From a virus (lineage: Duplodnaviria; Caudoviricetes): 64,000 bases of DNA. The position numbers and the translations under genes are program-made. The notes under the pieces were generated by a model. The model worked only from the letters and a program-made list of their open reading frames with translations, was not told the DNA's origin and did not search any database. Positions 4,934 to 45,111 of the stretch are shown in pieces (the stretch's first letter is position 1; the number at the start of each line of letters is the position of its first letter). The stretch is from IMG/VR virus record IMGVR_UViG_3300021964_010723; one strand, given 5' to 3'.

Positions 4934-5124
4934 TGGAAATATGGCAAGTAGTTTTAATAAGTTATATTGTAGGTAGTGCAATTGGATATTTTTTAGCATA
5001 CAAACCTCATGTAGCTACCCAGAATGAATTATTAGATGTGCTCATCGAAGAAGGATTTTTACGGCATAAGACTGATAAAGATGGTAGAATCATTATCCTT
5101 AAATATCACGATAATGTATCATAA
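4933..5124 (+). CDS. Small membrane protein
   Basis: N-terminal TM segment; coupled to upstream stop. Confidence 0.55.
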   Translation: MEIWQVVLISYIVGSAIGYFLAYKPHVATQNELLDVLIEEGFLRHKTDKDGRIIILKYHDNVS

Positions 5125-5150
5125 TCCTAATTTTTTTATAAATAATCAAA

Positions 5151-5312
5151 ATGTTTAAATTTTTATTTGGTGCCTTTGTAGGTTCTTTTCTACTTTACAA
5201 CTTTATTATTCCGAATCCAAACTATAAACAAACTTTAGATAATATTAATCAATCGTTGCTTACCCTTATCCATCAAGCAACCCAAGAATTAGATAAAAAT
5301 GTTCAAAATTAA
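5151..5312 (+). CDS. Small membrane protein (53 aa, not in ORF track)
   Basis: Hand-translated MFKFLFGAFVGSFLLYNF...; exact TATAAATA at 5137-5144. Confidence 0.5.
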   Translation: MFKFLFGAFVGSFLLYNFIIPNPNYKQTLDNINQSLLTLIHQATQELDKNVQN

Positions 5313-5565
5313 TGAAATTCAAACCGGCAAAAGTTATGCATGTAAATTTAAATGCGAAACTATGCTAGATGAAAATAATAAACCAATTACCAACCCAGAG
5401 ACTCCTCTTAAAGGACCAGGTATCTATGAATCGATTGGGATAATTCAATTAAGAGATAATGAAAAGCAACTAGTAAAATTAGTTGATAAAATAACCAAAA
5501 GAGAATTTATTATTCCCTATGACAATATTTGGGATATTGACGAAGTTGAGTGGATTTCAGATTAA
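5299..5565 (+). CDS. Hypothetical protein
   Basis: 88-aa ORF overlapping the upstream small ORF. Confidence 0.55.
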   Translation: MFKINEIQTGKSYACKFKCETMLDENNKPITNPETPLKGPGIYESIGIIQLRDNEKQLVKLVDKITKREFIIPYDNIWDIDEVEWISD

Positions 5566-5860
5566 TCTTAACGACCCCGGCGATCGGTCCATCATTCCTT
5601 CCGGTTAAAGGCTTATTGTTCTACGGCCGCCGATAGCCATTACCCCACCCCCTGGGAAACTGGGGGGCCTCTCCAACTTTTAAGTTGACTTTTTTATTAT
5701 TCTATATATAATTAAAACTTAACACTAACAAAGAGGCATTATGTGGAAAACAATTAGGAAGGGTATTACCTTTGAAAGGGTGTTTTATACCTATTTAATC
5801 TTTGCTTGGTTTGCAGCCTTGATAGCATTTGCTAGTCTGCGTTTCTACAACTAATCTTCT

Positions 5861-5935
5861 GTCCCGGTAGTTAAATGGATATAACAGTAGACTTCTAATC
5901 TTCTATTCTAGGTTCAATTCCTGGTCGGGACACCA
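5861..5935 (+). tRNA. tRNA-Arg(UCU)
   Basis: Acceptor GTCCCGG/TCGGGAC, anticodon loop CT-TCT-AA, GGTTCAATTCC T-arm, encoded CCA. Confidence 0.9.
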
Positions 5936-5947
5936 TAAAAAAAATAG

Positions 5948-5975
5948 TTGACATAATAAACAGCTATGTTATACT
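5948..5975 (+). promoter_or_regulatory. Sigma70-type promoter for tRNA-Leu
   Basis: TTGACA-16-TATACT with TGn extension. Confidence 0.6.
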
Positions 5976-5988
5976 TTTAGAACATTAA

Positions 5989-6075
5989 GCGACTGTGGTG
6001 AAACAGGTAAACACACTGGACTTAAAATCCAGCGGCAGTGATGCTTTGCCGGTTCGATTCCGGCCAGTCGCACCA
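5989..6075 (+). tRNA. tRNA-Leu(UAA)
   Basis: CTGGA-CT-TAA-AA-TCCAG anticodon arm, long variable arm, GGTTCGATTCC, CCA. Confidence 0.92.
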
Positions 6076-6328
6076 CATTCTAAACGGAGACATCATGCGA
6101 ATCACACCACGTAATTGGGCAGCTCAACAGTGTAGAGATTTAAATGGTCCGTTCCGTCCTACTGTAGAACGAGACCGTTCAAAATACACCCGCAAACAAA
6201 AGCATAAAGAGAGATATGCTTAATTTCCTGCGAGGCTTATTTTACCTAAGTTTTTCCTTGACTTTTATAGTAATAGCCATTATACTAATTGCTTTACTAC
6301 TAGAAGTTTACATCTTTGAGGAGGTACT

Positions 6329-6634
6329 ATGTCCCTGTCAACTGTGATTAAAGAAGCAAACATTTATCGTAAATTTTGCAGACAAATGCCTATCGATCCT
6401 AGACATGTAAGCATTAAAGATTCTATTGATCTTTTTCGCTATATTGATCGAGAACTTAGTCCAGAACACTTGTATCAAGACGGTGAACGCTCGCCTAAAG
6501 AAGCTCAACGTCAAGCCGCAAAATTACGCAAGGCTGCACAGGTATTGCTAGACCGCGGCTATAAAGCTCCAATTAACCTAGATTGCCTAAGGATTGATTA
6601 TGCGAATAGATTTTCAAAAGGCGTATGCATCTAA
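6329..6634 (+). CDS. Hypothetical phage protein
   Basis: SD GAGG; TTGACT-17-TATACT promoter at 6258-6286. Confidence 0.65.
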   Translation: MSLSTVIKEANIYRKFCRQMPIDPRHVSIKDSIDLFRYIDRELSPEHLYQDGERSPKEAQRQAAKLRKAAQVLLDRGYKAPINLDCLRIDYANRFSKGVCI

Positions 6635-6914
6635 ATCCTACTATGATGATGACGGGAAACAATGGCTAGTACAGTTGGGAAATGACTACCAACTCAGCAT
6701 CATCCGTCATCGTGGTAGTATGGGATACCGTGAAGGGTTATTTGAAATCGGTGTGTTCGGTGACTGTGATAGCATGGTTGAACTGCCAGGTATCACAGCA
6801 GAAGGGGATACTGTTAAAGGATTCCTTACACCCGAAGAGGTTAACTGTATCATCCTTAAAATGCAATTCCTTACAGACTCAGCACCAGTTTCGGTGTTTG
6901 GGTACCTAAACTAA
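6594..6914 (+). CDS. Hypothetical phage protein
   Basis: Co-oriented ORF with phage-like composition. Confidence 0.55.
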   Translation: MIMRIDFQKAYASKSYYDDDGKQWLVQLGNDYQLSIIRHRGSMGYREGLFEIGVFGDCDSMVELPGITAEGDTVKGFLTPEEVNCIILKMQFLTDSAPVSVFGYLN

Positions 6915-6924
6915 ATATTCTACT

Positions 6925-7001
6925 GGACCTCTAGCTCAATAGGTTAGAGCACACGACTCATAATCGTTAGGTTCTCGGTTCAAGTCCGAGGGGGTCCACC
7001 A
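6925..7001 (+). tRNA. tRNA with CAU anticodon, probably Ile2 (lysidine type) rather than Met
   Basis: CGA-CT-CAT-AA-TCG anticodon arm and overall sequence resemble bacterial tRNA-Ile2; CCA encoded. Confidence 0.85.
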
Positions 7002-7026
7002 ACAACCTACACCCCAGGAGAATTAA

Positions 7027-7209
7027 ATGGATTTTAATCACTTTGTATTAATGTTAGCTACTGCATTTGCTTTCGGTATCTTTGGATATGTCCTAGGTGA
7101 GCAAGAACGAGAACGGCAAGCAATCGAACGAGGCTTTGCAATCCACTGTCCATTAGATGGTAAATTTGGTTGGATAGACGAATGCAAAGAAGAACTTGAC
7201 ATACCTTAG
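7027..7209 (+). CDS. Small membrane protein
   Basis: SD AGGAG; N-terminal TM. Confidence 0.55.
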   Translation: MDFNHFVLMLATAFAFGIFGYVLGEQERERQAIERGFAIHCPLDGKFGWIDECKEELDIP

Positions 7210-7223
7210 TTACATGCTATAAT
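7196..7223 (+). promoter_or_regulatory. Sigma70-type promoter upstream of the tRNA-like RNA
   Basis: TTGACA-16-TATAAT with TGn extension. Confidence 0.65.
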
Positions 7224-7240
7224 AAAGTTATATTGAAAAT

Positions 7241-7327
7241 GCGGGGCGTTCCTTCCAGCTGTCTTATAAGCAGTCAGCCAAACAGGGAGGCGGTGCTATA
7301 GAGGTTCAACTCCTCCGCCCCGTACCA
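7241..7327 (+). ncRNA. Non-canonical tRNA-like RNA with a UAU anticodon-type loop
   Basis: Acceptor GCGGGGC/GCCCCGT+ACCA, T-arm GAGG-TTCAACT-CCTC, GCTGT-CTTATAA-GCAGT arm; no canonical D-arm. Confidence 0.7.
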
Positions 7328-7349
7328 CTTAACCCTAACCACTTTACTT

Positions 7350-8033
7350 ATGATATCTAAACGTGTGCGAGATCGTTTTGTAGCACAGCACGGGGAACCG
7401 GCTAACCTAGATGAATTAGGACGAGCCCTTGTCGCCCATATCAACAACCTTGGTGAAAGCTCAAAGGGCCGTGATAAGGGTCAGCGGGTGCTGGGCTTAG
7501 TTTGGAATATTAGCTCAGGCGAGCAGTGCAACAGCCACAACGCACCTGTTGGTATCCCAAGTAGTTTTAGTGACCCTGAGAGGTTTCCTGCGTTTTATGG
7601 TAAGGTATGGCTGAGACTAGCCAAGCCTCCTGGATGGTCTGTAACTGATTACTTTGAGGGTACTTGTTGTCACTTAGGATCAGGTGGAGGCGGGTCATAT
7701 GAAGGCCCTTGGGATCAAATATACGAAATGTGGCATAAGCAGCATAGACGTTGGCGCACTCGGGTAAAGTTGGACTACCCTGAACCTAGCCTATACAGTT
7801 GGACATTTACTATCTGGCTGCAGGATTGGCCTCTAATCGAAAAGCATTACAGTAAGTTAGACATGCTTGACATGATCAAAGGAGTTAGGGTAGATTACCT
7901 TAAACGTAATCATACGTTTACCTATGAAGCAGAAGGCATAGATGCTGCTGATGGCAAATATATACAGCAGTATGCCGAGATTGACTATTCTTTTTGTAGA
8001 GATAACCTTTTAAACGAGATTTTTAATGACTGA
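7350..8033 (+). CDS. Hypothetical protein
   Basis: 227-aa ORF; no recognised motif. Confidence 0.65.
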   Translation: MISKRVRDRFVAQHGEPANLDELGRALVAHINNLGESSKGRDKGQRVLGLVWNISSGEQCNSHNAPVGIPSSFSDPERFPAFYGKVWLRLAKPPGWSVTDYFEGTCCHLGSGGGGSYEGPWDQIYEMWHKQHRRWRTRVKLDYPEPSLYSWTFTIWLQDWPLIEKHYSKLDMLDMIKGVRVDYLKRNHTFTYEAEGIDAADGKYIQQYAEIDYSFCRDNLLNEIFND

Positions 8034-8161
8034 AGAAACAATCCAAGAACTTGAATATATCCTACGTGAACAGCAGAGTATGCTCAACGAGTTTGCTACT
8101 AATCTCGCACAGGTAAGTAGGCAACTTAGAGAAGTTACTGATCTATTAGACGAGGTAAAGT

Positions 8162-8563
8162 ATGCGAGTGAACATCAGGCGACCGCCTAAAAATCCAGAA
8201 CGCAATCAACGTGTAGATGTATTAGTAGAACCCCATGATGTATGGAGCTTAGACTGGACTCTGGCCCAGATAATACACCCTGGCCTCATCATGTTGAAGC
8301 AAAAGAAGAATGGGGCTCCTTGGGTTGACCCTATGGATGTACCAGAGGAGCTGAGACCCACACCCGAAGAGCTGGCAAACTACGAGGAGGATGCACGTAC
8401 TGATGAACTGTGGTTCGACCGTTTTGACTACATCCTAGATGAAATGATCTGGGCATTTGACTTGATAAAGCATGATGTGAATATCCATTCTAAGTTGGAA
8501 GCTGAGAGGATCAATAACGCTCTGCGTTTGTTTGGTAAATATTATCAAAGCTTATGGTGGTAA
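8162..8563 (+). CDS. Conserved-type hypothetical phage protein
   Basis: WSLDWTLA.II.P.L..LK....G.P and ILDEMIWAF...RLFGKYYQSLW pattern recalled from T4-like phage proteins. Confidence 0.65.
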   Translation: MRVNIRRPPKNPERNQRVDVLVEPHDVWSLDWTLAQIIHPGLIMLKQKKNGAPWVDPMDVPEELRPTPEELANYEEDARTDELWFDRFDYILDEMIWAFDLIKHDVNIHSKLEAERINNALRLFGKYYQSLWW

Positions 8564-8739
8564 ATTTTATGGACAAAGGAGGGTTGACCATGATGTACAT
8601 GTTTAATGATCTATTAAAGATAGATCCTAATGCTGAGGAACAGAAGGATAAAATTAAACTGATAGTGGCTGCAATTTTGGTTATTGCAATTGGTGTAGGA
8701 GGTCTTACATTGACACTATCACTTATGCTATAGAGGAGC

Positions 8740-9177
8740 ATGACTAGAACAGAAACGAAAGATCGATTCCATCGGATGGCGAGTGAAATTATGCAGAATA
8801 TGGATTTCACTCGCATCCATCATACCATGCAGGTGCTAGACTGGCGGTATCAAGGAGAACGGCAGTCTGAGGGTGATATCCGTATTTTTTGCCGCAGACT
8901 ACTACACGAAACAATTGAACGTGTATTAGATTCGCCTACAGGAGAAGCATTCCTAAGCACAGGTGGTTTTGAAATCACCATTTATCACCCAGACCATTTA
9001 GACGAAGAACGTGCTGGTACATTAGATGTCAAGTTTGTAGTTGAACATGACATGATGATTTTTGACCAGACTGAACAATCAAAAACAAGTATACAAGAAC
9101 AGATTGATGAAATCCTAACAAGATTAGACCAACTTGAAGACGAAATGAATCGATATATTGTAGATTACAGAGAATGA
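8740..9177 (+). CDS. Hypothetical protein
   Basis: SD GAGGAG; 145 aa with C-terminal coiled-coil-like segment. Confidence 0.65.
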   Translation: MTRTETKDRFHRMASEIMQNMDFTRIHHTMQVLDWRYQGERQSEGDIRIFCRRLLHETIERVLDSPTGEAFLSTGGFEITIYHPDHLDEERAGTLDVKFVVEHDMMIFDQTEQSKTSIQEQIDEILTRLDQLEDEMNRYIVDYRE

Positions 9178-9671
9178 TAACCCAAAAATCCCAACAAATG
9201 CAACTAGGATCATCCCAGGAAAAAGTTGCAATAGCTGCGCTGAGGAAGCAATACGACATTGAAGATAGGAGCGCATGGGCCAAAGACCCTAACAAACCTT
9301 ATGCAATGGATTGGTATTGGCCTGATCAAAAGATGGCTGCTGACTTTAAATTTAAAAAAATTAGCAAGTCAAAAAAATATCCCCCTGCTTTTTATTTGAA
9401 TTTAGAGCATTACCAAAAATATTGCCATTATGTAGCGTCTGATCCTGATGTCGAAGTAGGTGTCTTATGGTACATGGATCAAGATTTAGGTAATGAGTAT
9501 TTGCTAGAATTAGAAAAACTCACAATTGGAATTCACGTAGGGCAAGTCTATAAAGGGTTTAATGAAAAATTTAGAAGTGCTTACGAATCTGGATATTACT
9601 TTAGTATTCCATTAACCTTGTTTACGGATATTACAGGTCTGTCCTGCAGCATAAATTTTAACCGACAGTAG
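9174..9671 (+). CDS. Possible PD-(D/E)xK-like nuclease
   Basis: E(QEK)...MDW...ADFK spacing resembles the PD-(D/E)xK core; AT-richer than flanks. Confidence 0.35.
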   Translation: MITQKSQQMQLGSSQEKVAIAALRKQYDIEDRSAWAKDPNKPYAMDWYWPDQKMAADFKFKKISKSKKYPPAFYLNLEHYQKYCHYVASDPDVEVGVLWYMDQDLGNEYLLELEKLTIGIHVGQVYKGFNEKFRSAYESGYYFSIPLTLFTDITGLSCSINFNRQ

Positions 9672-9754: not shown

Positions 9755-9952
9755 ATGAAATATTTTGTAGTTTGGGCACAGGACTTTGGTTTAGAATATC
9801 TCCAGTATGACACGGCACAGCAAGCATTTGCTTTCCTTGAAACTCTATTACTGGAAGGCGTAGATGCGGACAAGATAATGATATTCCGTGGCGACACAGT
9901 TGGTTATACAGTTGAAGAACACAAACACTATACAATTAAAGGAGAAGAATGA
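9755..9952 (+). CDS. Hypothetical protein
   Basis: 65-aa co-oriented ORF. Confidence 0.5.
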   Translation: MKYFVVWAQDFGLEYLQYDTAQQAFAFLETLLLEGVDADKIMIFRGDTVGYTVEEHKHYTIKGEE

Positions 9953-10194
9953 AAGGTAGAACAGCACAACGCATCCGACGTAAGGCAGCAATTGAAAGAC
10001 TGGAGTATCAACACACACATTACACAGATAAAGTTAGAGAGATTAAAGAAGCACTTAAGACTGCTCGCAATCACAAGGACAAGCAGGAAGAACAACTGCA
10101 GGAAGATCTATTAAGGATCGCAGAAGACAAGTTAGCTAAGTGCAAGACCACGCTGGATAATACAAATCGCCTATTGAAGGCATCTGCTGCATAA
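9949..10194 (+). CDS. Small coiled-coil protein with N-terminal arginine-rich motif
   Basis: MKGRTAQRIRRKAAIERLE; SD AAGGAG; ATGA overlap with upstream ORF. Confidence 0.65.
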   Translation: MKGRTAQRIRRKAAIERLEYQHTHYTDKVREIKEALKTARNHKDKQEEQLQEDLLRIAEDKLAKCKTTLDNTNRLLKASAA

Positions 10195-11484: not shown

Positions 11485-14400
11485 ATGGCAAAAAAACTTT
11501 ACATTGGGCAAACAACCTTTGAACCTTTAGCAAATCAAGTAGTAATTAAAGGTAATATACTACCTCAACGATTATTACTAATCACAAATATTTCAAATAA
11601 CACTATAATTTATAATTTTGCTGATCCCCTATTAGGCTTAATTACTGCTCAATTTGACTCAACTACCGAATCTACAATTTTTACCTTGGTAAAAGATGTT
11701 TCAGCTATGAATAGCGATGATTTCTTACAGGTTTTTATTGATGATCAATCTACAGAATTTACACCAGCAGAAGATATAATTGATCCAGTAGGTAAAATTA
11801 GAATATCACAGCCCCAAAACTTGATAGATACTGATTTTGAGTATGGTTTACAATCTACTAAATGGGAAACATTACAAACTGTGAATAACGTTCCAACAAT
11901 TTATAGCACTAGTGGAGATACAGGAGTAAGTGGTATTTCACAGGTCACTGCTGTTACAGGTAGCCTAGCAATCAAAGTAGAAGTAACCATTGCTCATGGT
12001 TTAGAAGTAGGTGATCCGATAACTGTATTAGGTTTATCGTTATATCAGGCAGAGGGCGCATTTATTGTAACGTCAGTTCCAGATAATTTAACATTCTTTT
12101 TTGAATTAGATGTTCCTGCCACAGTGACAGGGGTTATTAGTGGTAATTACACAAGCATAGTGCCAAGCAAATTTTTTGAAGGATCAGGTATACCAGTTGA
12201 AATTGAAAATGGAATTACTACCGATGAAGCCTCTCCTAGTCAATTGACAGTTAATACAGCATCTGATCATAATTATACTGTTGGCACTAAAGTGTATCTC
12301 CGTAATACTGCAGGTCCTAAATTATTAACTATTGCAGATAGTGCAGCTACAGCACCTGATAATAGACCATATGTAGATACAGTGTCTCAATTTAGTCAGA
12401 CTGATTCAATTGATACACAGATTTCTACCGGAAGGGGTAGTTTTTTAAATTTTCCTGTAACCTCTTATGACTGGAATGGAACTTATGAAAATTATTTTAC
12501 GACAACTACTTTTCCAAGCAATACAGATATTACTTGGGTAAACCATAATTTCCGCGATAATTACACTGTTTTATTTTCAGATCCATTAAGAGGGCGCACA
12601 AATGCTAACTTAGAAGACGGTAGGATTTATTATGTTATAACTGTAGATGCTGATACAATTAGATTATCACTTACAGAAAATGGTACTGCAATCACACTTA
12701 GCACAATGGATCTGTTACATGGTTACCCTAAATTAACTTTAGCCTATAAGGTAGAAAAAGTTTATAACAATATTTGGAATACTGCTATTGCTTCAAGATA
12801 TATTACTGATGTCTCTGCCCAGATATCGTTAAGGGATAACAGTGGAATTGATTACCCAAGTTATAGAGAAGATATTTTTGATCTTACTACGACACATGGC
12901 TTGACTGCAGTACCTGCAGAGTTATATGTAACTAGTCTTCAACAAGGTGGTGATGATGATTGGTGGAATGGAAACCTATCTCAGTCTGAAGCTACTGCGT
13001 ATTACTTTACTAACGATACAGGTCAACAGATTTTGCCAACAGCAGGGGGTTGGACAGCCTACAATGGTGTGCAAGCAAACGGTTATACATCGTCATTAAC
13101 TTTACGTGTTGGTACAGATTTTAGGAATAGTGCTGTAAATCTTGCAGGAGCTTGTTATGAATCGAATGGACGAATTTATATGCGTCTCCGCACAGCTACT
13201 GGTCGAGAGAACCAAAATTTTTATGGGTACTATTACCAGTTTAGAATGACTTTAGTTGCTTACACTGGTGTTAGCCAATTATCAGAAGCTGAAAAGAATA
13301 CAAGTGGGTGGGATTTAGCATTACAAGAATGGGGACTAGGAGGAACTGCTCCTTCACGTTTAATAGCATTCCAAGGTGTTTCAAGTTCATCAAGCTATAA
13401 CTTTACCACAGATAGTTTTAGTTACGGAACCGCTTCAAATGGTATTGACAATCAAAGATATTCAACGACTAAAATTCTAAACACAAATCGTGCAACCCAG
13501 GCAGATTTCCTAACTGGTCAATTTGCAACAGATTTGAGCAACGCAAATTGGTTTGATAGTACTCAAAATAGTGAAATTTTTTATATTTTCTGTAATGATT
13601 TAGGTTTTAATAAAAATTTATTATATGTACCTAATCATGGTGTTAATCAAGGCACCCCTTCACTTGCAACTGTGACAATTGATTCAGCACGTTATGCTGC
13701 CGGAGACAGGTTTGGTTTTGCTAACAGCACAGGTTTTGAAACTACTGTAGCTGACCAGGTCTTCCAGGCGAACTTACTCTATGTAAGCCCATCTACACTA
13801 CGAATGCAACTTATTGACGCACCTAGTACTGATGATATTACAAAATTTGCTAGCCAATTTTCTATGAACTATCAGTATGCAAATCTTGCATATAATACGA
13901 TCTATGTAGAGAATCATAAAATTACAGCTAGCCAAGCAGCTACCTATACAAGTTTAGGTGGAACTGCAATTGCACCTTTAGTTAGTGGAACAGAATATCT
14001 TTTAACTAGGGCAAACGATAATAGATTATCTATTTCTGATGTAGGAGGCGGTGTTACCAGCGTACTTACCATCGAATATGGTGCAAGTATCAACACTGCA
14101 ACCACAGTTTTTATTGATGTAGAAACACCACTAGGTGCTGCTGCAAACACTGCAACTGTTGATTCTATTGAATTTAGAGGAAATTTTAGGCGTCGAAACG
14201 AATATGTTGACATTACATTTGATGACGGTGATAACTATAGAATAGGACAATTTGATGATCAAGGTGACAGCTCAACATATGTTGTGAGTACAACATTTTC
14301 TGCCAAGGATATAACTCCAAATTTGACGAATGTTGGCGGTAAAATTGGATTTAATGTTGAATTTGATGCAAGTGATGGCGTAGATAGCGATGCAGCAGGA

Positions 14401-17028
14401 ATCGGATTTTGGTGGCAATTAAGATTTACTATTACTGCTAGTTCCAGTAGCCTAGCGTTGACATCTGCAGGAACCAATGGTCATCAATTTCTTATTGAAA
14501 ATATAGATGGTGCTTATGATGGAATCTATACAATTACCGAAGTGCCCAGCAGCTTAGAATTTAATATTGAAAGCACTTTTACAATACCTGCAGTATCGTA
14601 TATAATTTCAAGTGTAGCAAATGATGAAATAACCTTTACCGCACCACATAGGTTGATCACAGGATCTTCAATTGATTATTCTTTTTCAGGAGCAACACAG
14701 CTATTTGATTGGACCGCCTATCAAGAGCCTAATGGATATGCTAGGGTTTATGTAATATCCACTGGAGTAAACTCAATAAAGTTATCTACGAGCAGCCTGA
14801 GTGCTATTAACAATCAAGATATTGCATTGACATACGACGGCATACCAGCAAACCATGTATTTAGAACTCAAAATATTGAACGGGCAATAAAAGGTGCAGG
14901 TTCTGTTACAGTCAATGGTAGCACAGGAGTTGTGAGTGGCAGTGGGACTAGATTCCTTAGCCAGTTCAAACGTTTTGATCTGATCTATTTTGACAGCCCA
15001 GCAGGTTATGTCAAAGCCTATACAGTAGGAGATATTACTAGCCAGAGTGATATGACAATCAGCGATAGTGATATTGATATGACAGGTGTTGATTACTACT
15101 ACGTTACAGAGCTAAATCCTAGACCGGATGGTTATAGTCTACACCTGCCCTTTGATGGTGGTGTTGATATCACAGCAGGAACCAGTCCATATAGTAAGAT
15201 AATCCGCCAAACAAGGAAATATTTTAGATACCAATCTGGTAAAGGAATACAAACCAGTTTCGCCGTCAACTTTAATCCGCCCAAGCTTGCTAGACAATTA
15301 ATACAGGCAGCTGGAACCACAGCAACTATATACAGCCAAGAACAGCATAATCTAAAGGTAGGAGACAGGGTAATAATAGAAGGCGCAACTGTGAGTTTTG
15401 GTAGTAATCCCTATAACGGCACATTTGATGTAGACACAGTTCCAGATCTGTTTTCATTCACGTACGAACTTGGGGAAGTACCAGCTGATCCTAAAGCAGG
15501 TGGTTTCCCAACCTATGTGAGAGATAGTTGGAGTGATAGTTATGTGAGAGCAGGTATGTTTGACGATCAAAACGGATTTTTTATGGAATTCGATGGTCAG
15601 ACCTTAAACATGGTGCGTAGGAGTAGTACCCTCCAGTTAGCAGGCAGTATAAACTGCACTAAGAACTCATCAGTGATACAAGGTATCAACACCAGCTTCA
15701 GCACACAATTACAAACAGGTGATACAGTGGTAATCCGTGGACAGAGTTATCTCATAAACACTGTGCCTGCAGATAACCAAGCCATCATACAGCCTGCGTA
15801 CAAGGGAGCATCAGCCACTTTTGTTAAGATAACCAAGACAGTTGACGTTAAAACCCCACAGAGCGAATGGAACTTAGACCGAGCAGACGGTAACGGGTTC
15901 ACTGGCTTCATTCTAGACACCAAGAAACTACAGATGGCCTACATGGATTATTCATGGTATGGTGCTGGTAAAATACGCTACGGATTTAAAGATCAACACG
16001 GTCATATTAGATACTTCCACGAGTATGTACACAACAACAGGCTTACTGAATCCTACTTCCGTTCAGGTAACCTACCTGCTCGTTATGAAATCAGCAATGG
16101 TAGTTCACCTACCACAGCCCCAACACTGTTCCACTTTGGTACATCCGTGATCATGGATGGAACTTTTGATGATGATAAAGCGTACCAGTTCACAGCACAG
16201 AGTAACCAATTTGCATACACTGCAGGAGGACAGTTCACGTTTAATCCTACAGGTAACTCAACCTTCACACAGGTCACTATCGACGGCAAGCGTGTATATG
16301 TCTATAATTTCCCCATAAACTCAACTGATATCGCCAATCTGCAAACAGGACTGGAAGTTACTGCTACCAACACTGCTACTACAGAAATTACCCTGCCTGC
16401 AGGTACCTTTATCACACAGGTAGACATAACCAACAATAGGATCAGTCTTTCATATCCAGCGACCACAAACGATCCAACTGGTAGTAGTGCATATCCCACG
16501 ATTGTGACAGCAGATAACACTTTCGTATGGGGAGACTCGGCTGCGGTTGACTTAACCCAGTTCTTACCACTCATTTCAGTAAGGCTAGCACCTAGTGTGG
16601 ATTCAGGTCTAACAGGATTGTTGGGCGAGCGTGAAATAATCAATCGCATGCAGTTGGCACTACAGCAGGCATCGGTAACTTCTAACAGAGACATTGAGAT
16701 CTTCCTCATCCAGAACTCAATACCTATCAAACTGAACTACACTAACGCCCAAACACCAAGCCTCAGCCAGATAATCAAACACAGACTAGGCGACACACTG
16801 TTAGGAGGGACTACTATATACAGTACCAAAACATCAGCAGGCAGCATCGCGTTTGCGATAGGTGATCTGTTAGAAATGGGTAATTCAATCCTAGGTGGAG
16901 ATGGTGTGTTCCCAAGTGGACCAGATCTACTAACACTGGCTGTACAACCGCAGGATACAGCAGGGATATCAATCACTTCGCCTTTCTCAGTTACAGGAAA
17001 GATCAGTTGGTCAGAGTCACAAGCATGA
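11485..17028 (+). CDS. Very large beta-rich virion structural protein (tail fibre/baseplate-associated type)
   Basis: 1847 aa, T/S/G/N-rich; recurring H-G/N-x-x-(V)GD small beta modules (HGLEVGD, HNLKVGD, HRLITG); ATAAATA at 11454-11460. Confidence 0.7.
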   Translation: MAKKLYIGQTTFEPLANQVVIKGNILPQRLLLITNISNNTIIYNFADPLLGLITAQFDSTTESTIFTLVKDVSAMNSDDFLQVFIDDQSTEFTPAEDIIDPVGKIRISQPQNLIDTDFEYGLQSTKWETLQTVNNVPTIYSTSGDTGVSGISQVTAVTGSLAIKVEVTIAHGLEVGDPITVLGLSLYQAEGAFIVTSVPDNLTFFFELDVPATVTGVISGNYTSIVPSKFFEGSGIPVEIENGITTDEASPSQLTVNTASDHNYTVGTKVYLRNTAGPKLLTIADSAATAPDNRPYVDTVSQFSQTDSIDTQISTGRGSFLNFPVTSYDWNGTYENYFTTTTFPSNTDITWVNHNFRDNYTVLFSDPLRGRTNANLEDGRIYYVITVDADTIRLSLTENGTAITLSTMDLLHGYPKLTLAYKVEKVYNNIWNTAIASRYITDVSAQISLRDNSGIDYPSYREDIFDLTTTHGLTAVPAELYVTSLQQGGDDDWWNGNLSQSEATAYYFTNDTGQQILPTAGGWTAYNGVQANGYTSSLTLRVGTDFRNSAVNLAGACYESNGRIYMRLRTATGRENQNFYGYYYQFRMTLVAYTGVSQLSEAEKNTSGWDLALQEWGLGGTAPSRLIAFQGVSSSSSYNFTTDSFSYGTASNGIDNQRYSTTKILNTNRATQADFLTGQFATDLSNANWFDSTQNSEIFYIFCNDLGFNKNLLYVPNHGVNQGTPSLATVTIDSARYAAGDRFGFANSTGFETTVADQVFQANLLYVSPSTLRMQLIDAPSTDDITKFASQFSMNYQYANLAYNTIYVENHKITASQAATYTSLGGTAIAPLVSGTEYLLTRANDNRLSISDVGGGVTSVLTIEYGASINTATTVFIDVETPLGAAANTATVDSIEFRGNFRRRNEYVDITFDDGDNYRIGQFDDQGDSSTYVVSTTFSAKDITPNLTNVGGKIGFNVEFDASDGVDSDAAGIGFWWQLRFTITASSSSLALTSAGTNGHQFLIENIDGAYDGIYTITEVPSSLEFNIESTFTIPAVSYIISSVANDEITFTAPHRLITGSSIDYSFSGATQLFDWTAYQEPNGYARVYVISTGVNSIKLSTSSLSAINNQDIALTYDGIPANHVFRTQNIERAIKGAGSVTVNGSTGVVSGSGTRFLSQFKRFDLIYFDSPAGYVKAYTVGDITSQSDMTISDSDIDMTGVDYYYVTELNPRPDGYSLHLPFDGGVDITAGTSPYSKIIRQTRKYFRYQSGKGIQTSFAVNFNPPKLARQLIQAAGTTATIYSQEQHNLKVGDRVIIEGATVSFGSNPYNGTFDVDTVPDLFSFTYELGEVPADPKAGGFPTYVRDSWSDSYVRAGMFDDQNGFFMEFDGQTLNMVRRSSTLQLAGSINCTKNSSVIQGINTSFSTQLQTGDTVVIRGQSYLINTVPADNQAIIQPAYKGASATFVKITKTVDVKTPQSEWNLDRADGNGFTGFILDTKKLQMAYMDYSWYGAGKIRYGFKDQHGHIRYFHEYVHNNRLTESYFRSGNLPARYEISNGSSPTTAPTLFHFGTSVIMDGTFDDDKAYQFTAQSNQFAYTAGGQFTFNPTGNSTFTQVTIDGKRVYVYNFPINSTDIANLQTGLEVTATNTATTEITLPAGTFITQVDITNNRISLSYPATTNDPTGSSAYPTIVTADNTFVWGDSAAVDLTQFLPLISVRLAPSVDSGLTGLLGEREIINRMQLALQQASVTSNRDIEIFLIQNSIPIKLNYTNAQTPSLSQIIKHRLGDTLLGGTTIYSTKTSAGSIAFAIGDLLEMGNSILGGDGVFPSGPDLLTLAVQPQDTAGISITSPFSVTGKISWSESQA

Positions 17029-23025: not shown

Positions 23026-23102
23026 CTGCGTGTAGTTCAGTCTGGTAGAACACTTGTTTTGGGAACAAGAGGTCGTTGGTTCAAGTCCAGCCACGCAGAC
23101 CA
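23026..23102 (+). tRNA. tRNA-Pro(UGG)
   Basis: CTTGT-TT-TGG-GA-ACAAG arm; acceptor CTGCGTG/CACGCAG; CCA. Confidence 0.92.
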
Positions 23103-23105
23103 TTA

Positions 23106-23182
<77 letters not shown>

Positions 23183-33552: not shown

Positions 33553-33951
33553 TTATTTTTTGGTTGGCATTGTAAAAAGTGCATTTACTGCATTTTCAGT
33601 TGGCTTACGTGCAAACACACACCATTGCAGTACTTCTTCGTTTGGATAGTTTTCTGCTACATAATCTCGGAAGCTCTTGCCTGTTGTGTACACATCGTCT
33701 ACTACAAGCACAGGGTCGTTTATGTTCTGTGTACCGTACTTATCTAGTGCCTTGCCTAGTGCTACGCCACCTCTGGGTATACCTACGGCAGCTCTCCAGT
33801 TACGAGGCTCAAACTCTCGAATAATGTGTGCAAGTGCAACCCATTCATCTGGTGATATAGCATCACACTCAATTTTCCATGTAAGTGGCAAGCCTGCATG
33901 GCTAATAAAATTTATCTTTTGGAATAAATCTATGTTAATGTTTTTATTCAT
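33553..33951 (-). CDS. Type I phosphoribosyltransferase (OPRTase-like)
   Basis: FISHAG, WKIECD, VGIPRGG, VLVVDDVYTTGKS PRPP loop. Confidence 0.8.
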   Translation of the reverse strand: MNKNINIDLFQKINFISHAGLPLTWKIECDAISPDEWVALAHIIREFEPRNWRAAVGIPRGGVALGKALDKYGTQNINDPVLVVDDVYTTGKSFRDYVAENYPNEEVLQWCVFARKPTENAVNALFTMPTKK

Positions 33952-35471
33952 GAAAATACCTTTACATTGTATAGTTTACTAAATTCTTGTGCATCTGTCA
34001 ATGTGTTTACTATGGGTTTGCCTTTTATATTGAGGCTTGTGTTTAACAGCATAGGACAGCCTGTTACTTCGTACCATCTTTCCAACAACGCTCTAAAACC
34101 AGGGTGATCTTGCTTTGTAACTGTTTGAACTCTGCTGGTTCCGTCTGCGTGGACAATTGCAGGGTATCGTTCAGGATCCTTACAATGTGCCGTGTACTGC
34201 ATATAACGTCCGAAGGGCGGCTCAAATAAACTGGATGCGTGTTCTGCAAGGACTGCAGGGGCGAAGGGACGGAACTTCTGTCTACGTTTAATGGCATTGA
34301 CTTTATCTTTAATATCCATACGCTGAGGGTCAGCAAGAAGGCTGCGAGCGCCAAGGCTACGAGGACCGAACTCGGCTCTTCCTGACGCAACCCCTGCAAT
34401 ACCCGTTTGCATAAGTTCATTAACGATTTCATCTACTGGATATTCTCCTTCTATCTCATAACCTAAATACGGTCCGGGCCATTCTATGTGTGTGCCTCTG
34501 TGTGCAAGCACTGCACCTATGCAACTGCCTGCATCGCCCGGATTAGGCATTATCCAAATGTTATCTTCACCGTTCCAGTGTTCAACTATCTTGCTATTAG
34601 CACTACAATTCAATGCACAACCACCCATAAACACTAGGTTACTGCTAGCGTATGTCCTAGCTACAGCCTTACTTATCCTAGTTAATATATGCTCATATGC
34701 CCATTGCGTTCCTGCTGCTACGTCATATGCCCATTGTGTAAACTCTTGCTTACCGTCTACGATATTAAATGCAATCTTAGTAGGCTCCCACCACATGCAC
34801 CCTCTATGTAGATTATGTTTAAGTTGGAAGTTAGGAAGGAGATTAAAAATATTTAAATGATTAGGAAACTGTTCCCAAAAATCGTTTAATATAGTTTCGC
34901 CATACTTACCAGCATCTCCATATGCTGCCATACCCATTAGTATGTACTCTTCCTCATTTGGTTTCAGTCCGATACGTTGTGTTATTGCACTATACCAAAT
35001 GCCTATGCTGTTTGGATAGTTCCAGGTGCGTTTACACGTAAGTGTATCATACTCACCTTCCCATACACTTAAAGTATTCCATTCGCCAATAGCATCAATG
35101 ACTAGCACAGTTGCATGATCAAACCCACTGGTATAATATCCAGCTGCTGCATGTGAATGATGATGACCTATCGTTGATATAGGCGCTGTCAAACCAAAGG
35201 ATTTTAAATATTTTTTTATGTTGTTCTTGTTAAGTAAATCTTTTTGTCCAGCATACAACTGCCGTGTAGTTTTTAGTAAAGGTTTTTCGTACCATACAAT
35301 CTTATTAGGTTCTCCCCATTGCAGTGCATAGTCAACAATACTAGGATTTAAGTGTGCATCATTTTTTTTATGGCTAAATCTTTCTGTATGACTTGCAAAT
35401 TCTATTTTGTCGTTGTTATGCACACTAATTGCAGCGTCATGACTGTTAGCACTTATTCCCCATGTAATCAT
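33948..35471 (-). CDS. Carbamoyltransferase (NodU/CmcH family)
   Basis: SHDAA, HHHSHAAAGY, DAIGE, MGMAAYG, GGCALNC, EFGPRSLGARS, RQKFRPFAP, LLNTSLN. Confidence 0.93.
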   Translation of the reverse strand: MITWGISANSHDAAISVHNNDKIEFASHTERFSHKKNDAHLNPSIVDYALQWGEPNKIVWYEKPLLKTTRQLYAGQKDLLNKNNIKKYLKSFGLTAPISTIGHHHSHAAAGYYTSGFDHATVLVIDAIGEWNTLSVWEGEYDTLTCKRTWNYPNSIGIWYSAITQRIGLKPNEEEYILMGMAAYGDAGKYGETILNDFWEQFPNHLNIFNLLPNFQLKHNLHRGCMWWEPTKIAFNIVDGKQEFTQWAYDVAAGTQWAYEHILTRISKAVARTYASSNLVFMGGCALNCSANSKIVEHWNGEDNIWIMPNPGDAGSCIGAVLAHRGTHIEWPGPYLGYEIEGEYPVDEIVNELMQTGIAGVASGRAEFGPRSLGARSLLADPQRMDIKDKVNAIKRRQKFRPFAPAVLAEHASSLFEPPFGRYMQYTAHCKDPERYPAIVHADGTSRVQTVTKQDHPGFRALLERWYEVTGCPMLLNTSLNIKGKPIVNTLTDAQEFSKLYNVKVFS

Positions 35472-35606: not shown

Positions 35607-36577
35607 TTTTTTGCTCTCAATTTTATTTTTAAACTAGAATTACATCTAGAAGTAATAATGCTGTATAGAGTAAGCATTCTACCGTATTTATCTACAGCAT
35701 CACCTACATCATTTATATTTTTATCCCAATCAGGGAAACTTATGCTCCATCCTAAAGATAATGCTTGGTCTATCAATTTTTTTCCAGCCTTATCTCTATC
35801 TGGAATAACAATTTTCTCAGTGTTATAAGAATTTAATAAATTACATTGATATTCTGAAATTTCAGATCCTAATATACTTGTAGCTCCTAATAATAATGCA
35901 TCTATAGGACCTTCGCAAATTATAGTAAAAGAATAATCATTTTGTTGTGCATCTAATCCAAATACATAACCTGGTTGAGAATTTGTTAAGTATTTTGGAT
36001 GTTTATCTGCAATTGTTCTTGCTGTATATCCTACAAGTTTAGTATTATAGTAAAAAGGAATTATTAATCTATTTTTTAAACCTACATTATCACAGCAATA
36101 AAAACTACTGTCTTCAAATTGAAGATTTCTATTTGATATATATTCTATTATTTTAAGAATATTAGAATTAACATTTTGTACTTCGTTTATTAGAATAGCA
36201 TTATTAGGAAGCGTAATTTCTTTAAAAGAAGGTAAGACTGTTTGTATTTGTAATTTAGTTACATTGTTTGTTTCTTGTTTTAATAATTCTAATGATAGTT
36301 TTTTAATTATATTGTCAGGTACATTTAACCATTCTAAAAATTTTTTAAATTTTAAAGATAAACTTTTTGCACCTTGCCAACTGCACTTAAAACCGCAGTT
36401 AAAGCAATGATAACTAACACCGCCATCATTATTAATAATTAATCCGCCTCTTCCACGTTTATCTGTTGTTTGTCCATTGTGATGACAACACGGCGCATTA
36501 AAACTTATCCAGCCACTAGGTGTTGTTTTTTTCTTTGCAGGTAGATATGCAGATACAATATTAGATACAATGCTCAT
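35594..36577 (-). CDS. 61: DNA primase (T4 gp61-like)
   Basis: Zn finger (APCC..YHCFNC), RLIIPFY...GYTAR, TOPRIM CEGPIDA and PDRD, DVGD. Confidence 0.9.
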   Translation of the reverse strand: MSIVSNIVSAYLPAKKKTTPSGWISFNAPCCHHNGQTTDKRGRGGLIINNDGGVSYHCFNCGFKCSWQGAKSLSLKFKKFLEWLNVPDNIIKKLSLELLKQETNNVTKLQIQTVLPSFKEITLPNNAILINEVQNVNSNILKIIEYISNRNLQFEDSSFYCCDNVGLKNRLIIPFYYNTKLVGYTARTIADKHPKYLTNSQPGYVFGLDAQQNDYSFTIICEGPIDALLLGATSILGSEISEYQCNLLNSYNTEKIVIPDRDKAGKKLIDQALSLGWSISFPDWDKNINDVGDAVDKYGRMLTLYSIITSRCNSSLKIKLRAKKWFG

Positions 36578-36583
36578 ACATTA

Positions 36584-36612
36584 ATTATAGCAAAGTAGCA
36601 GTAGATTGTCAA
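36584..36612 (-). promoter_or_regulatory. Sigma70-type promoter for primase (leaderless)
   Basis: TTGACA-17-TATAAT with TG extension, 6 nt before ATG. Confidence 0.7.
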
Positions 36613-36614
36613 GA

Positions 36615-36992
36615 TTAATGATTTAATTTTACGCTGTTTACTGATCCATCAGTCCACGAACTAACTAAACATCTTACCCACACAAAGTTACCGGTAAAGT
36701 TATACATCTTGCTACTAGTTTCATTTATAATGTATTCAACAAAATTAGATGTAGTATTATCTGTAACATCTGTTATGTTAACCGTAAACCAATCTTCGTC
36801 TGCAGGATCGGTAGCTAGTGATGCTTGTATTTCTACTTTACCTAAGAATCCTGTGAGCACAACTTGTATAGTATGGAAGCCATCTGCACGACCATAATAA
36901 CCATCGCCTTTAAATTTTTCACTTGTAATAGTTTGTTCTGAACTGTCTCCCGGGTGCGTCTGGGTTGCTATAATAGTTTCACTTGTTGCCAT
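36615..36992 (-). CDS. Probable virion structural protein
   Basis: Beta-rich, T/S-rich; coupled to a paralog-like upstream gene. Confidence 0.5.
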   Translation of the reverse strand: MATSETIIATQTHPGDSSEQTITSEKFKGDGYYGRADGFHTIQVVLTGFLGKVEIQASLATDPADEDWFTVNITDVTDNTTSNFVEYIINETSSKMYNFTGNFVWVRCLVSSWTDGSVNSVKLNH

Positions 36993-37000
36993 ACCTATTC

Positions 37001-37765: not shown

Positions 37766-37796
37766 ATTATATTTATTAGAAAGAATACTATTATTA

Positions 37797-39348: not shown

Positions 39349-39351
39349 AAT

Positions 39352-40998: not shown

Positions 40999-41009
40999 AG
41001 TATATTATA

Positions 41010-44193: not shown

Positions 44194-44230
44194 TATTGTA
44201 TCCTTTAAAAACTAGTAATATTATAGCAAA

Positions 44231-45073: not shown

Positions 45074-45111
45074 TGTTAAATACCTTTATACTATTTAAGA
45101 AAGATTTACCT

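What the first reader, a model, noticed from the sequence alone, without database searches (positions are those of the whole stretch)
7241..7327. Rearranged tRNA-like RNA with UAU anticodon and no D-arm
Seen: the order is acceptor 5' strand, CCTTCC, anticodon-type arm (GCTGT-CTTATAA-GCAGT), linker, GGGAGG (pairs with CCTTCC), CGGTGCTATA, T-arm, acceptor 3' strand, ACCA. The anticodon arm is thus nested in an extra helix that replaces the D-arm. It has its own sigma70 promoter (7196-7223). Established: AUA is normally read by lysidine-modified CAU tRNA, and UAU-anticodon tRNAs are rare in bacteria. Inference: a non-canonical AUA decoder or a tRNA mimic/decoy against anticodon nucleases. I cannot tell whether this fold has been described.
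Basis: partly seen in the sequence, partly recalled or inferred. Interest (0 to 1): 0.75.

Follow-up and report, generated by a model that had tools for sequence, protein, structure and literature searches.

The report
Phage isoleucine tRNA with rewired D-arm
This 87-base phage gene encodes a strongly conserved transfer-RNA-like molecule, most likely for the isoleucine codon AUA. Its D-arm hairpin is replaced by a long-range helix with the enlarged variable loop, a layout that tRNA finders miss and that I found described in no paper.

Summary

The RNA is not a decayed tRNA. I found 14 distinct relatives in 25 uncultivated viral or metagenome contigs. On their alignment 99.7% of cells pair, and 15 of 26 pairs show changes on both sides, including 4 of 6 pairs of CCTTCC/GGGAGG. 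I add a 3-bp pseudoknot (AGC 7276-7278 with GCU 7295-7297). It reads as a short variable-arm stem whose 16-nt loop supplies GGGAGG and a conserved GG.

All core members have the loop CUUAUAN (UAU), A73 and an encoded CCA. One RNA of the same layout has anticodon UCU. A looser relative has GAU and lies in a complete phage whose 37 ARAGORN tRNAs include no Ile.

In the window's ORFs AUA is 39% of Ile codons, and the gene sits in a tRNA cluster. The best reading (about 0.6) is a working AUA decoder whose D-stem is built by permuted connectivity. Charging and ribosome use are not shown.

It is not an allo-tRNA, a tRNA-Sec or a mitochondrial-type D-armless tRNA. This scan had already noted the same family on other DNA (13 earlier notes).

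The parts
7196..7223 (+). Sigma-70 promoter: -35 TTGACA (7196-7201), 16-nt spacer, TG at 7215-7216, -10 TATAAT (7218-7223). The predicted start is near 7230, giving a leader of about 10 nt.
   Evidence: 12 of 12 matches. L003 has an unrelated upstream sequence but again a TTGACT-17-TATACT site at the same place. RNA-library contigs begin at 7228 and 7232, a weak hint only.
7241..7248 (+). Acceptor stem, 5' strand (8 nt; G1 forms a G.U pair with U at 7323).
   Evidence: Pairs with 7316-7323. Six of 8 pairs change on both sides among 14 relatives.
7251..7256 (+). Helix X, 5' strand CCUUCC. It stands where the 3' strand of a D-stem would be (followed by A17, then the anticodon stem).
   Evidence: Pairs with 7285-7290. 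Four of 6 pairs are compensatory and 100% of cells pair.
7258..7274 (+). Anticodon arm: stem GCUGU/GCAGU, loop CUUAUAA, anticodon UAU at 7265-7267.
   Evidence: Three of 5 stem pairs are compensatory. The first six loop letters (CUUAUA) are invariant and the seventh is A in 12 of 14. A17/C35 versus G17/U35 co-vary, as isosteric wobble pairs would, but this is one clade split only.
7276..7278 (+). Helix Y, 5' strand AGC (a pseudoknot with 7295-7297). Read as the stem of a short variable arm.
   Evidence: Two of 3 pairs change on both sides (A-U/G-C and G-C/A-U) and 97.6% of cells pair. The covariance model that made the alignment did not model this helix. It is a 6-bp stem in L081.
7285..7290 (+). 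Helix X, 3' strand GGGAGG, lying inside the 16-nt loop closed by helix Y.
7291..7297 (+). C-GG-U, then the helix Y 3' strand GCU. G52 and G53 are invariant and are candidate equivalents of G18 and G19.
   Evidence: The invariant columns are. The G18/G19 role is inference.
7301..7315 (+). T-arm: 4-bp stem GAGG/CCUC, loop UUCAACU.
   Evidence: The stem is invariant in the family. The base before GAGG is A, U or C opposite an invariant C, so no fifth pair can form. That C pairs with G8, giving the 8/4 arrangement.
7316..7327 (+). Acceptor stem 3' strand CGCCCCGU, discriminator A, encoded CCA.
6925..7001 (+). Neighbouring canonical tRNA(CAU), probably the lysidine-type tRNA-Ile2.
   Evidence: ARAGORN. 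Its best full-length E. coli matches are annotated tRNA-Ile. It has C4-G69 and C5-G68; that these mark tRNA-Ile2 is from my own knowledge.
5861..6075 (+). tRNA-Arg(UCU) and tRNA-Leu(UAA) of the same cluster.

Best explanation
The gene encodes a working elongator tRNA that reads the isoleucine codon AUA. It keeps the modules a tRNA needs but has a core wired differently from the cloverleaf.

What the sequence and comparisons show:
- It has a 12-bp acceptor/T minihelix arranged 8/4, a canonical T-loop, A73 and an encoded CCA.
- It has a canonical anticodon loop, C32-U33-UAU-A37-A38.
- The 5' strand CCUUCC runs straight into the anticodon stem, as the 3' strand of a D-stem does.
- The partner GGGAGG lies after the anticodon arm, inside the 16-nt loop of a 3-bp variable-arm stem (AGC/GCU). 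It is followed by an invariant GG.

What is inferred:
- Helix X takes the place of the D-stem stacked on the anticodon stem.
- The GG touches the T-loop as G18 and G19 do.
- The molecule therefore still forms an L-shape.
- It is transcribed from its own strong promoter and trimmed by RNase P and 3' nucleases.
- It is charged, most likely by host IleRS through the anticodon loop and A73.
- It supplies AUA decoding for an AUA-rich phage without needing host lysidine synthase.
For: 1. Family and selection.
- There are 14 distinct sequences in 25 loci.
- The 87 nt are identical in the window, L001 and L003 while the flanks vary, and L003 has a different upstream region.

2. Structure.
- 99.7% of cells pair and 15 of 26 pairs are compensatory, with 0 of 500 shuffles reaching this.
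- RNAalifold on an ungapped alignment predicts the same helices de novo.
- The pseudoknot Y co-varies although the model did not include it.
- Y is a 6-bp hairpin stem in L081, with the X 3' strand in its loop.

3. tRNA hallmarks.
- CUUAUA is invariant in the anticodon loop.
- The T-loop UUCAAYU, A73 and CCA are present in all 14.

4. Other anticodons in related layouts.
- L097 carries UCU (64.7 bits).
- A looser 7/5 relative carries GAU, with a D-loop-like AGUUGGUGA after the anticodon arm.
- That relative sits between tRNA-Cys and tRNA-Val in a complete 171-kb phage. Its 37 ARAGORN tRNAs cover 17 amino acids but not Ile.

5. Context.
- The gene lies 240 nt from tRNA(CAU) and within 1.5 kb of tRNA-Arg(UCU) and tRNA-Leu(UAA).
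- Other members lie in or near tRNA arrays.

6. Demand.
- In 58 window ORFs AUA is 39% of Ile codons, AGA 37% of Arg and UUA 41% of Leu. These match the phage's own tRNA set.

7. Promoter.
- It is a perfect sigma-70 match.
- Contigs of RNA libraries from three studies cover 7228-7406. This is weak evidence.
Against: - No aminoacylation, processing or ribosome data exist.
- The RNA-library evidence is from contigs only. Contigs cannot show ends or exclude DNA carry-over.
- The phage also carries a probable tRNA-Ile2(CAU) next door, so an AUA decoder would be partly redundant.
- A tRNA without a D hairpin is not known to work with bacterial EF-Tu and ribosomes.
- The connectors are short (UU, and AUA before the T-stem), and no 3D model was made, so the L-shape is inference.
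- An unmodified U34 in UAU could also read AUG. The modification state is unknown.
- The acceptor pair 4-69 varies (G-C, C-G, A-U), so it is not a conserved IleRS element.
- No member was found in any cultured phage, so the host is unknown.
Confidence: 0.6

Rival explanations
1. A tRNA mimic that is not used in translation. It might be a decoy or sponge for a host anticodon nuclease or another tRNA-binding defence or modification enzyme, or a regulator that merely looks like tRNA-Ile(UAU).
For: - The non-canonical core could make it unusable by the ribosome.
- A strong early-type promoter drives it.
- A canonical probable tRNA-Ile2 already stands beside it.
- Mukai et al. 2017 (PMC5389517) found that six acidobacterial allo-tRNA(UAU) species, converted to the CUA anticodon, were inactive in E. 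coli, and two of them were toxic. This shows that irregular UAU tRNAs need not be translators.
Against: - No nuclease aimed at tRNA-Ile(UAU) is known to me.
- Relatives carry UCU and GAU anticodons and sit inside tRNA arrays. A single-target decoy does not predict this.
- All aminoacylation-side features are conserved: the 12-bp minihelix, A73 and the encoded CCA.
- No defence or anti-defence gene is consistently linked.
Confidence: 0.17
2. A working tRNA that is charged with an amino acid other than Ile, for example Leu through A73 and a class-II-like variable arm, or Ser. AUA would then be partly recoded in infected cells.
For: - The RNA has a variable-arm-like hairpin (helix Y).
- Other phages carry 91-95-nt tRNA(UAU) genes with a long variable arm.
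- By my own knowledge, bacterial LeuRS ignores the anticodon and needs A73.
- G1.U72 with A73 also occurs in tRNA-Leu genes of related contigs (L079 and L082).
Against: - By my own knowledge, IleRS reads the anticodon loop, which is canonical and nearly invariant here.
- The D-loop geometry that LeuRS uses is absent.
- A GAU-anticodon relative is the only Ile-anticodon RNA found in a phage with 37 other tRNAs. That fits plain Ile.
- Helix Y is only 3 bp in the core family, unlike the arm that SerRS needs.
Confidence: 0.1
3. A cis-acting leader element of the downstream gene (7350-8033). It would be a tRNA-shaped processing or stability signal in the 5' untranslated region rather than a free RNA.
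For: - No terminator lies between 7327 and the ATG at 7350.
- RNA-library contigs run from the RNA into the ORF.
- The ORF follows the RNA in the window, L001 and L003.
Against: - In other members the downstream gene is different.
- A new promoter-like site often follows the RNA directly (L016 and L008).
- The only protein family shared among the RNA's neighbourhoods across sequence variants lies on either side of the RNA.
- Co-transcription of tRNAs with mRNAs is usual in phages and does not argue against a free tRNA.
Confidence: 0.05
4. A decayed pseudo-tRNA or a chance fold.
For: Standard finders do not call it.
Against: - Compensatory changes occur in four helices.
- The sequence is 87 of 87 identical across loci whose flanks differ.
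- It scores 113.6 bits against a model that finds 25 loci at 70 bits or more.
Confidence: 0.01

Closest known systems
Canonical bacterial and phage elongator tRNA-Ile that reads AUA (tRNA-Ile2 with lysidine-CAU; tRNA-Ile(UAU) as in phage T4, from my own knowledge)
   Same: Acceptor/T minihelix of 12 bp, T-loop UUCAAYU, A73, CCA, anticodon loop C-U-NNN-A-A, location in a phage tRNA cluster, and a match to a heavily used A-ending codon.
   Different: - There is no D hairpin.
- The strand before the anticodon arm pairs with the loop of a variable-arm hairpin behind it.
- The arrangement is 8/4 instead of 7/5.
- It is not recognised by RF00005 or ARAGORN.
(8/4) allo-tRNA, especially allo-tRNA(UAU) (Mukai et al. 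2017, PMC5389517)
   Same: An 8-bp acceptor stem with a 4-bp T-stem, UAU as a predominant anticodon, extra structure in the variable region, and discovery in metagenomes.
   Different: - Allo-tRNAs keep a D stem-loop with a long stem and a tetraloop, in the normal order.
- They have a free long variable arm and mostly G73 or U73 (Ser identity).
- They belong to Acidobacteria, Clostridia and Proteobacteria.
- Here there is no D hairpin, the discriminator is A73, the variable loop is engaged in helix X, and all carriers are viral contigs.
tRNA-Sec (Rfam RF01852)
   Same: An 8-bp acceptor stem, a 6-bp helix in the D position, and it is the best sub-threshold Rfam match.
   Different: It scores 21.4 bits against a cut-off of 47. 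The anticodon is UAU, not UCA. The 6-bp helix is closed by a long-range partner rather than a tetraloop. The T-stem has 4 bp, not 5.
Mitochondrial D-armless tRNAs (for example nematode or mammalian mt-tRNA-Ser; Krahn et al. 2020, PMC7609411)
   Same: The D hairpin is absent between the acceptor and anticodon stems.
   Different: - In those tRNAs a flexible connector replaces the arm, and the tRNAs are shortened.
- Here the RNA is longer than a normal tRNA, and the replacement strand forms a co-varying 6-bp helix plus a pseudoknot.
- ARAGORN's mitochondrial mode does not call it.
Circularly permuted tRNA genes of Cyanidioschyzon merolae (my own knowledge; no paper read here)
   Same: The usual order of tRNA segments along the DNA is permuted.
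   Different: There the transcript is circularised and re-cut to give a mature tRNA of normal connectivity. Here the encoded ends are the normal acceptor ends and the mature RNA itself would have the permuted core.
Long class-II-like tRNA(UAU) genes of other phage contigs (L023 1751-1844 and 2612-2704, L028, L029 2088-2182)
   Same: UAU anticodon, A73, encoded CCA, extra arm after the anticodon arm, often G1.U72, phage tRNA clusters, often beside a tRNA(CAU).
   Different: They keep a normal D-arm and a free variable hairpin, and ARAGORN calls them. Homology to the rewired family is not shown.

Membership tests
tRNA (Rfam RF00005, cloverleaf) | Score at or above the family's gathering cut-off, or a call by tRNA finders | tested here: not met
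   There is no RF00005 match at the gathering score or in the E-value search. ARAGORN is negative in all modes.
tRNA (Rfam RF00005, cloverleaf) | Acceptor stem, T-arm with a canonical T-loop, 7-nt anticodon loop with U33 and a purine at 37, and a 3' CCA | tested here: met
tRNA (Rfam RF00005, cloverleaf) | D stem-loop between the acceptor and anticodon stems | tested here: not met
   Only 9 nt (UUCCUUCCA) lie there. Six of them pair with 7285-7290.
tRNA (functional definition) | Aminoacylation and delivery to the ribosome | not testable with these tools
   This needs biochemistry.
(8/4) allo-tRNA | 8-bp acceptor stem plus 4-bp T-stem | tested here: met
   G8-C76 is invariant and no fifth T-stem pair is possible.
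(8/4) allo-tRNA | tRNA-Sec-like D stem-loop with a long stem and a tetraloop | tested here: not met
   The feature is described in PMC5389517. There is no hairpin before the anticodon arm.
(8/4) allo-tRNA | G73 or U73 discriminator and a free long variable arm (Ser identity) | tested here: not met
   All 14 members have A73. The variable-arm stem is 3 bp and its loop is engaged in helix X.
tRNA-Sec (RF01852) | Gathering score of 47 bits; UCA anticodon | tested here: not met
   The score is 21.4 bits and the anticodon is UAU.
Mitochondrial-type D-armless tRNA | D-arm replaced by an unpaired connector; called by ARAGORN -mt | tested here: not met
   The replacement strand is base-paired with covariation. 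ARAGORN -mt and -mtx find nothing.
Rewired phage tRNA family (this scan's working name; model R1) | Acceptor, 5' strand X, anticodon arm, Y 5' strand, X 3' strand with GG, Y 3' strand, T-arm, all co-varying | tested here: met
   The window scores 113.6 bits against R1.

The most novel reading that the evidence does not exclude
Phages have evolved and spread a second, non-cloverleaf tRNA architecture that works on bacterial ribosomes. The D-stem is made by permuted connectivity through a pseudoknot with the variable loop. The rewiring may be adaptive: it could keep AUA and AGA decoding while hiding the tRNA from host enzymes that recognise the cloverleaf core, such as anticodon nucleases and other tRNA-targeting defences. 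Alternatively, it could let a phage factor tell its own tRNAs from the host's.
Probability: 0.25. Interest if true: 0.9.

Novelty: new variant of a known kind. Interest (0 to 1): 0.8.

Why it matters
All tRNAs known to serve bacterial-type ribosomes share the cloverleaf order of arms. The known exceptions (mitochondrial armless tRNAs, tRNA-Sec, allo-tRNAs) shorten or lengthen arms but keep that order.

A conserved, co-varying family in which the D-stem is assembled from strands on both sides of the anticodon arm would matter in three ways:
- It would show that the L-shape can be reached by another connectivity.
- It would mean that tRNA finders systematically under-count phage tRNAs. Of 25 core-family loci, ARAGORN called none.
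- It would give a natural scaffold for orthogonal tRNA engineering.

It also bears on how phages secure decoding of AUA, a codon whose host decoder depends on lysidine modification.

Tried and rejected
- Alternative register of the inner hairpin (GCUG with CAGC 35-38, loop UAUAAGC), as in the single-sequence fold. Rejected because L016 breaks it and supports the 7-nt CUUAUAA loop.
- Megablast and blastn of the window region and of four family variants against 50,697 GenBank phage records. No member was found.
- Scan of 185,579 species' genomes with an anticodon-anchored pattern. It gave two unrelated hits only.
- The same pattern in metagenome contigs gave two members, some unrelated tRNAs and peat-soil UAU tRNA-like sequences that are not this family.
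- Nearest held virus record G001. It has no copy.
- RNA evidence. Contigs of four metatranscriptome runs were laid. They cover the RNA in three studies, and two start at 7228 and 7232. Contigs cannot show ends, strand or level, and stretches without cover mean nothing. I therefore treat expression as not shown.
- Linked protein. The only family shared across several variants is a small protein of unknown function (PHROG 4074). It has no Pfam match and lies on either side of the RNA, so it gives no functional lead.
- Allo-tRNA, tRNA-Sec and mitochondrial D-armless membership. All rejected on defining features.
- A17.C35 versus G17.U35 as an extra wobble pair. The letters co-vary perfectly but follow a single clade split, so I count this as a hint only.
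In the complete phage G002, Ile, Phe and Trp are all missing from ARAGORN's 37 calls. A Phe(GAA)-like RNA with an oversized D-arm sits in a gap. The argument therefore holds only in a weaker form.
- Complex prediction, structure prediction and protein database searches were not used. No protein partner is claimed.

Full report
**1. The observation**

- 5' acceptor strand GCGGGGCG, then UU, then CCUUCC, then A.
- Arm GCUGU-CUUAUAA-GCAGU.
- CAGCCAAACA, then GGGAGG, then CGGUGCUAUA.
- T-arm GAGG-UUCAACU-CCUC.
- 3' acceptor strand CGCCCCGU, then ACCA.

The promoter scan finds TTGACA, a 16-nt spacer and TATAAT with an upstream TG at 7196-7223. It matches 12 of 12 positions and is the best site in 5000-9000.

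Standard finders do not see the gene:
- ARAGORN lists five ordinary tRNAs in the window: Arg-UCU at 5861, Leu-UAA at 5989, CAU at 6925, Pro-UGG at 23026 and Ala-UGC at 23107. It finds nothing at 7241.
- ARAGORN is also negative with lowered thresholds and in mitochondrial mode.
- Rfam gives nothing there at gathering scores.
- In a permissive search the best Rfam match is tRNA-Sec, at 21.4 bits against a cut-off of 47.

The single-sequence fold contains the acceptor, CCUUCC/GGGAGG and T helices, with z = -2.2.

**2. Relatives**

The window belongs to an uncultivated phage. It encodes a T4-type large terminase, a DnaB-like helicase, a Pol III alpha fragment, an endolysin and a carbamoyltransferase. 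Its own assembly is not held.

Exact-pattern scans of IMG/VR and of metagenome contigs gave 25 loci with 14 distinct sequences of 86-90 nt. A covariance model built from three members (R1) scores them at 70-114 bits.

None lies in the GenBank phage collection. None came from the species-genome collection under the pattern used.

In the window, L001 and L003 the 87 nt are identical. The 22-nt spacer and the downstream ORF carry substitutions. L003 has an unrelated upstream sequence that again offers a promoter at the same distance. This points to purifying selection on the RNA itself.

**3. Structure**

Three diverged members of equal length align without gaps.

On the 14 distinct sequences (alignment A4) the counts are as follows:
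- 99.7% of cells form standard pairs.
- 15 of 26 pairs show changes on both sides.
- No shuffle out of 500 reaches the observed values.
- Sliding the partners by 1-3 columns drops pairing to 45-57%.

| Helix | Pairs with changes on both sides |
|---|---|
| Acceptor | 6 of 8 |
| X (CCUUCC/GGGAGG) | 4 of 6 |
| Anticodon stem | 3 of 5 |
| T-stem | 0 of 4 (invariant) |

Examples of helix X in other members are CCGGCC/GGCCGG, CCAUUC/GAGUGG, CCCUCA/UGGGGG and CCAACC/GGUUGG.

The RNA therefore passes that test.

The rival register of the inner hairpin is excluded by L016.

I add a fifth helix, Y. AGC (RNA positions 36-38, window 7276-7278) pairs with GCU (55-57, window 7295-7297):
- Two of its three pairs change on both sides (A-U to G-C; G-C to A-U in L074).
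- The covariance model did not include it, so the alignment was not fitted to it.
- In the more distant L081, Y is a 6-bp stem. Helix X (UGACA/UGUCA) uses the middle of its 18-nt loop.

Y is thus a variable-arm hairpin placed between the anticodon arm and the T-arm. Helix X is a pseudoknot between its loop and the strand that replaces the D-arm.

**4. Reading of the fold (inference)**

- The 5' strand of X runs 5' to 3' into A17 and the anticodon stem. This is the path of the D-stem's 3' strand (22-25), then position 26, then position 27.
- The 3' strand of X is followed by C-GG-U with invariant G52 and G53. In the same way, the D-stem's 5' strand is followed by the D-loop with G18 and G19.
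- In the looser relative L088/L100 the segment after the anticodon arm even reads AGUUGGUGA, a typical D-loop sequence.
- The D-stem therefore seems to be kept in space but built with permuted connectivity.
- The acceptor/T stack is 8/4. G8-C76 is invariant, and the base before GAGG (A, U or C) cannot pair with that C.
- Whether the short connectors allow a normal L-shape could not be modelled here.

**5. Function**

All 14 core members share:
- CUUAUA invariant in the anticodon loop (anticodon UAU, U33, A37), with A at position 38 in 12 of 14;
- the T-loop UUCAAYU;
- A73 and an encoded CCA.

The pattern did not specify the anticodon, yet it returned only UAU members.

The looser scan added other anticodons:
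- L097 has the full layout but anticodon UCU (AGA). It scores 64.7 bits.
- A 7/5 relative with GAU lies between tRNA-Cys and tRNA-Val in a complete 171-kb phage. Its 37 ARAGORN tRNAs cover 17 amino acids but not Ile. Phe and Trp are also uncalled there, so this argument is supportive, not exclusive.

Members lie in or beside tRNA arrays.

In 58 non-overlapping ORFs of the window:

| Codon | Share |
|---|---|
| AUA | 39% of Ile codons (26.6 per 1000 codons) |
| AGA | 37% of Arg codons |
| UUA | 41% of Leu codons |

These are the codons read by the phage's own tRNAs.

Together this favours a working AUA decoder. The neighbouring tRNA(CAU) is probably the lysidine-type tRNA-Ile2. Its best E. coli matches are annotated tRNA-Ile, and it has C4-G69 and C5-G68 (the significance of these pairs is from my own knowledge). 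The phage may therefore carry one AUA decoder that depends on host TilS and one that does not.

Evidence for expression is weak. Contigs from RNA libraries of three studies cover 7228-7406, and two of them begin at 7228 and 7232, close to the predicted start. Contigs cannot show ends or exclude DNA.

**6. Rivals**

- A non-translating mimic or decoy remains possible (0.17). It predicts neither the other anticodons nor the conserved charging end, and no linked defence gene was found.
- Charging with another amino acid (0.10) is raised by the variable-arm hairpin and by the 91-95-nt class-II-like tRNA(UAU) genes of other phages.
- A cis-acting leader role (0.05) is unlikely, because the downstream genes differ among members.
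- A pseudo-tRNA is excluded by the covariation counts.

**7. Comparison with what is known**

- Allo-tRNAs (Mukai et al. 2017, PMC5389517) share the 8/4 stack and a frequent UAU anticodon. They keep a D stem-loop with a tetraloop, have G73 or U73, and are bacterial.
- tRNA-Sec fails on score and anticodon.
- Mitochondrial D-armless tRNAs replace the arm by a flexible connector (Krahn et al. 2020, PMC7609411).
- Six full-text searches and a survey of structured RNAs in viruses (PMC10690425) gave no description of this layout.
- Earlier notes of this scan report the same family on other DNA, including the identical 87-mer, and reach similar readings. I treated them as leads and re-derived the structure and counts here.

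**8. Verdict**

This is a real, strongly conserved, apparently undescribed structural variant of tRNA. It is carried by uncultivated phages and is most likely an AUA decoder. Its function in translation still has to be shown.

Noticed in passing
window 6925-7001 (+): The tRNA that ARAGORN calls Met(cat) is probably a lysidine-type tRNA-Ile2. Its best full-length E. coli matches (79-80% identity) are annotated tRNA-Ile, and it has C4-G69 and C5-G68. The phage would then carry two candidate AUA decoders 240 nt apart.
   Followed up: partly
L023 1751-1844 and 2612-2704; L028 3660-3752 and 4510-4601; L029 2088-2182; L033; L027; L034; L042; L056: Eight of the 10 distinct tRNA(tat) genes ARAGORN called in the fetched phage loci are 91-95 nt long. 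They have a normal D-arm plus a variable-arm hairpin (loops such as UAGAUUU or CAGAUAAUU), A73 and CCA, and often lie next to a tRNA(cat). A class-II-like tRNA for AUA is itself unusual.
   Followed up: partly
L097 1667-1752 (-): An RNA with the same rewired layout (8/4 stack, UU, 6-bp helix X, A17) but anticodon UCU (AGA) and no encoded CCA. It scores 64.7 bits against model R1.
   Followed up: partly
L081 6815-6908 (+); L084 6670-6755 (-); L078 2798-2879 (-): More distant UAU relatives (32-37 bits). In L081 helix Y is a 6-bp stem and helix X has 5 bp. L084 and L078 have 7/5 stacks and 5-bp X helices (each with one G.U pair). L078 lies inside the 28-tRNA array of a 364-kb jumbo-phage contig. 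ARAGORN miscalls L084 as tRNA-Tyr(ata).
   Followed up: partly
L100 (G002:C1:76500-92500), e.g. 9552-9628, 9838-10190, 13510-13589, 1597-1686: A complete 171-kb high-GC phage has 37 ARAGORN tRNAs and, in the gaps of the array, several further tRNA-like elements. These include a Phe(GAA)-like RNA with an oversized D-arm, the GAU rewired RNA (9942-10021), mini elements made of an acceptor plus a T-arm, and an RNA with a 9-10-bp acceptor stem.
   Followed up: no
window 6594-6914 (+); L002 4565-4891; L016 3831-4349 (-); L008 4040-4553: A small protein of unknown function lies within 1.9 kb of the RNA in seven loci, with four different sequence variants of the RNA. It lies on either side of the RNA. 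It matches PHROG 4074, has no Pfam match, and carries the motif G-x-F/Y-E-x-G ... G-I-T-x-E-x-D-T-V-x-G-W/F-L.
   Followed up: partly
window 33948-35471 (-): A carbamoyltransferase (Pfam Carbam_trans_N and Carbam_trans_C). From my own knowledge this enzyme family resembles the enzymes that make t6A37. The phage's CAU, UAU and UCU tRNAs all read ANN codons and would carry t6A37. A link is pure speculation.
   Followed up: no
window 7298: Contigs of two RNA libraries carry G instead of A at RNA position 58, in the unpaired AUA before the T-stem. This is probably a strain variant.
   Followed up: no
window 11485-17028 (+): A 1847-aa ORF with no Pfam match.
   Followed up: no
L065 / L069 / L070 (peat metagenome contigs): A UAU-anticodon tRNA-like sequence with a long variable region and no encoded CCA. 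It is not of the rewired family and is possibly an allo-tRNA(UAU) of the kind Mukai et al. described.
   Followed up: no
window 36000-50000: G+C falls to 27-32% here against 38-48% elsewhere in the window.
   Followed up: no
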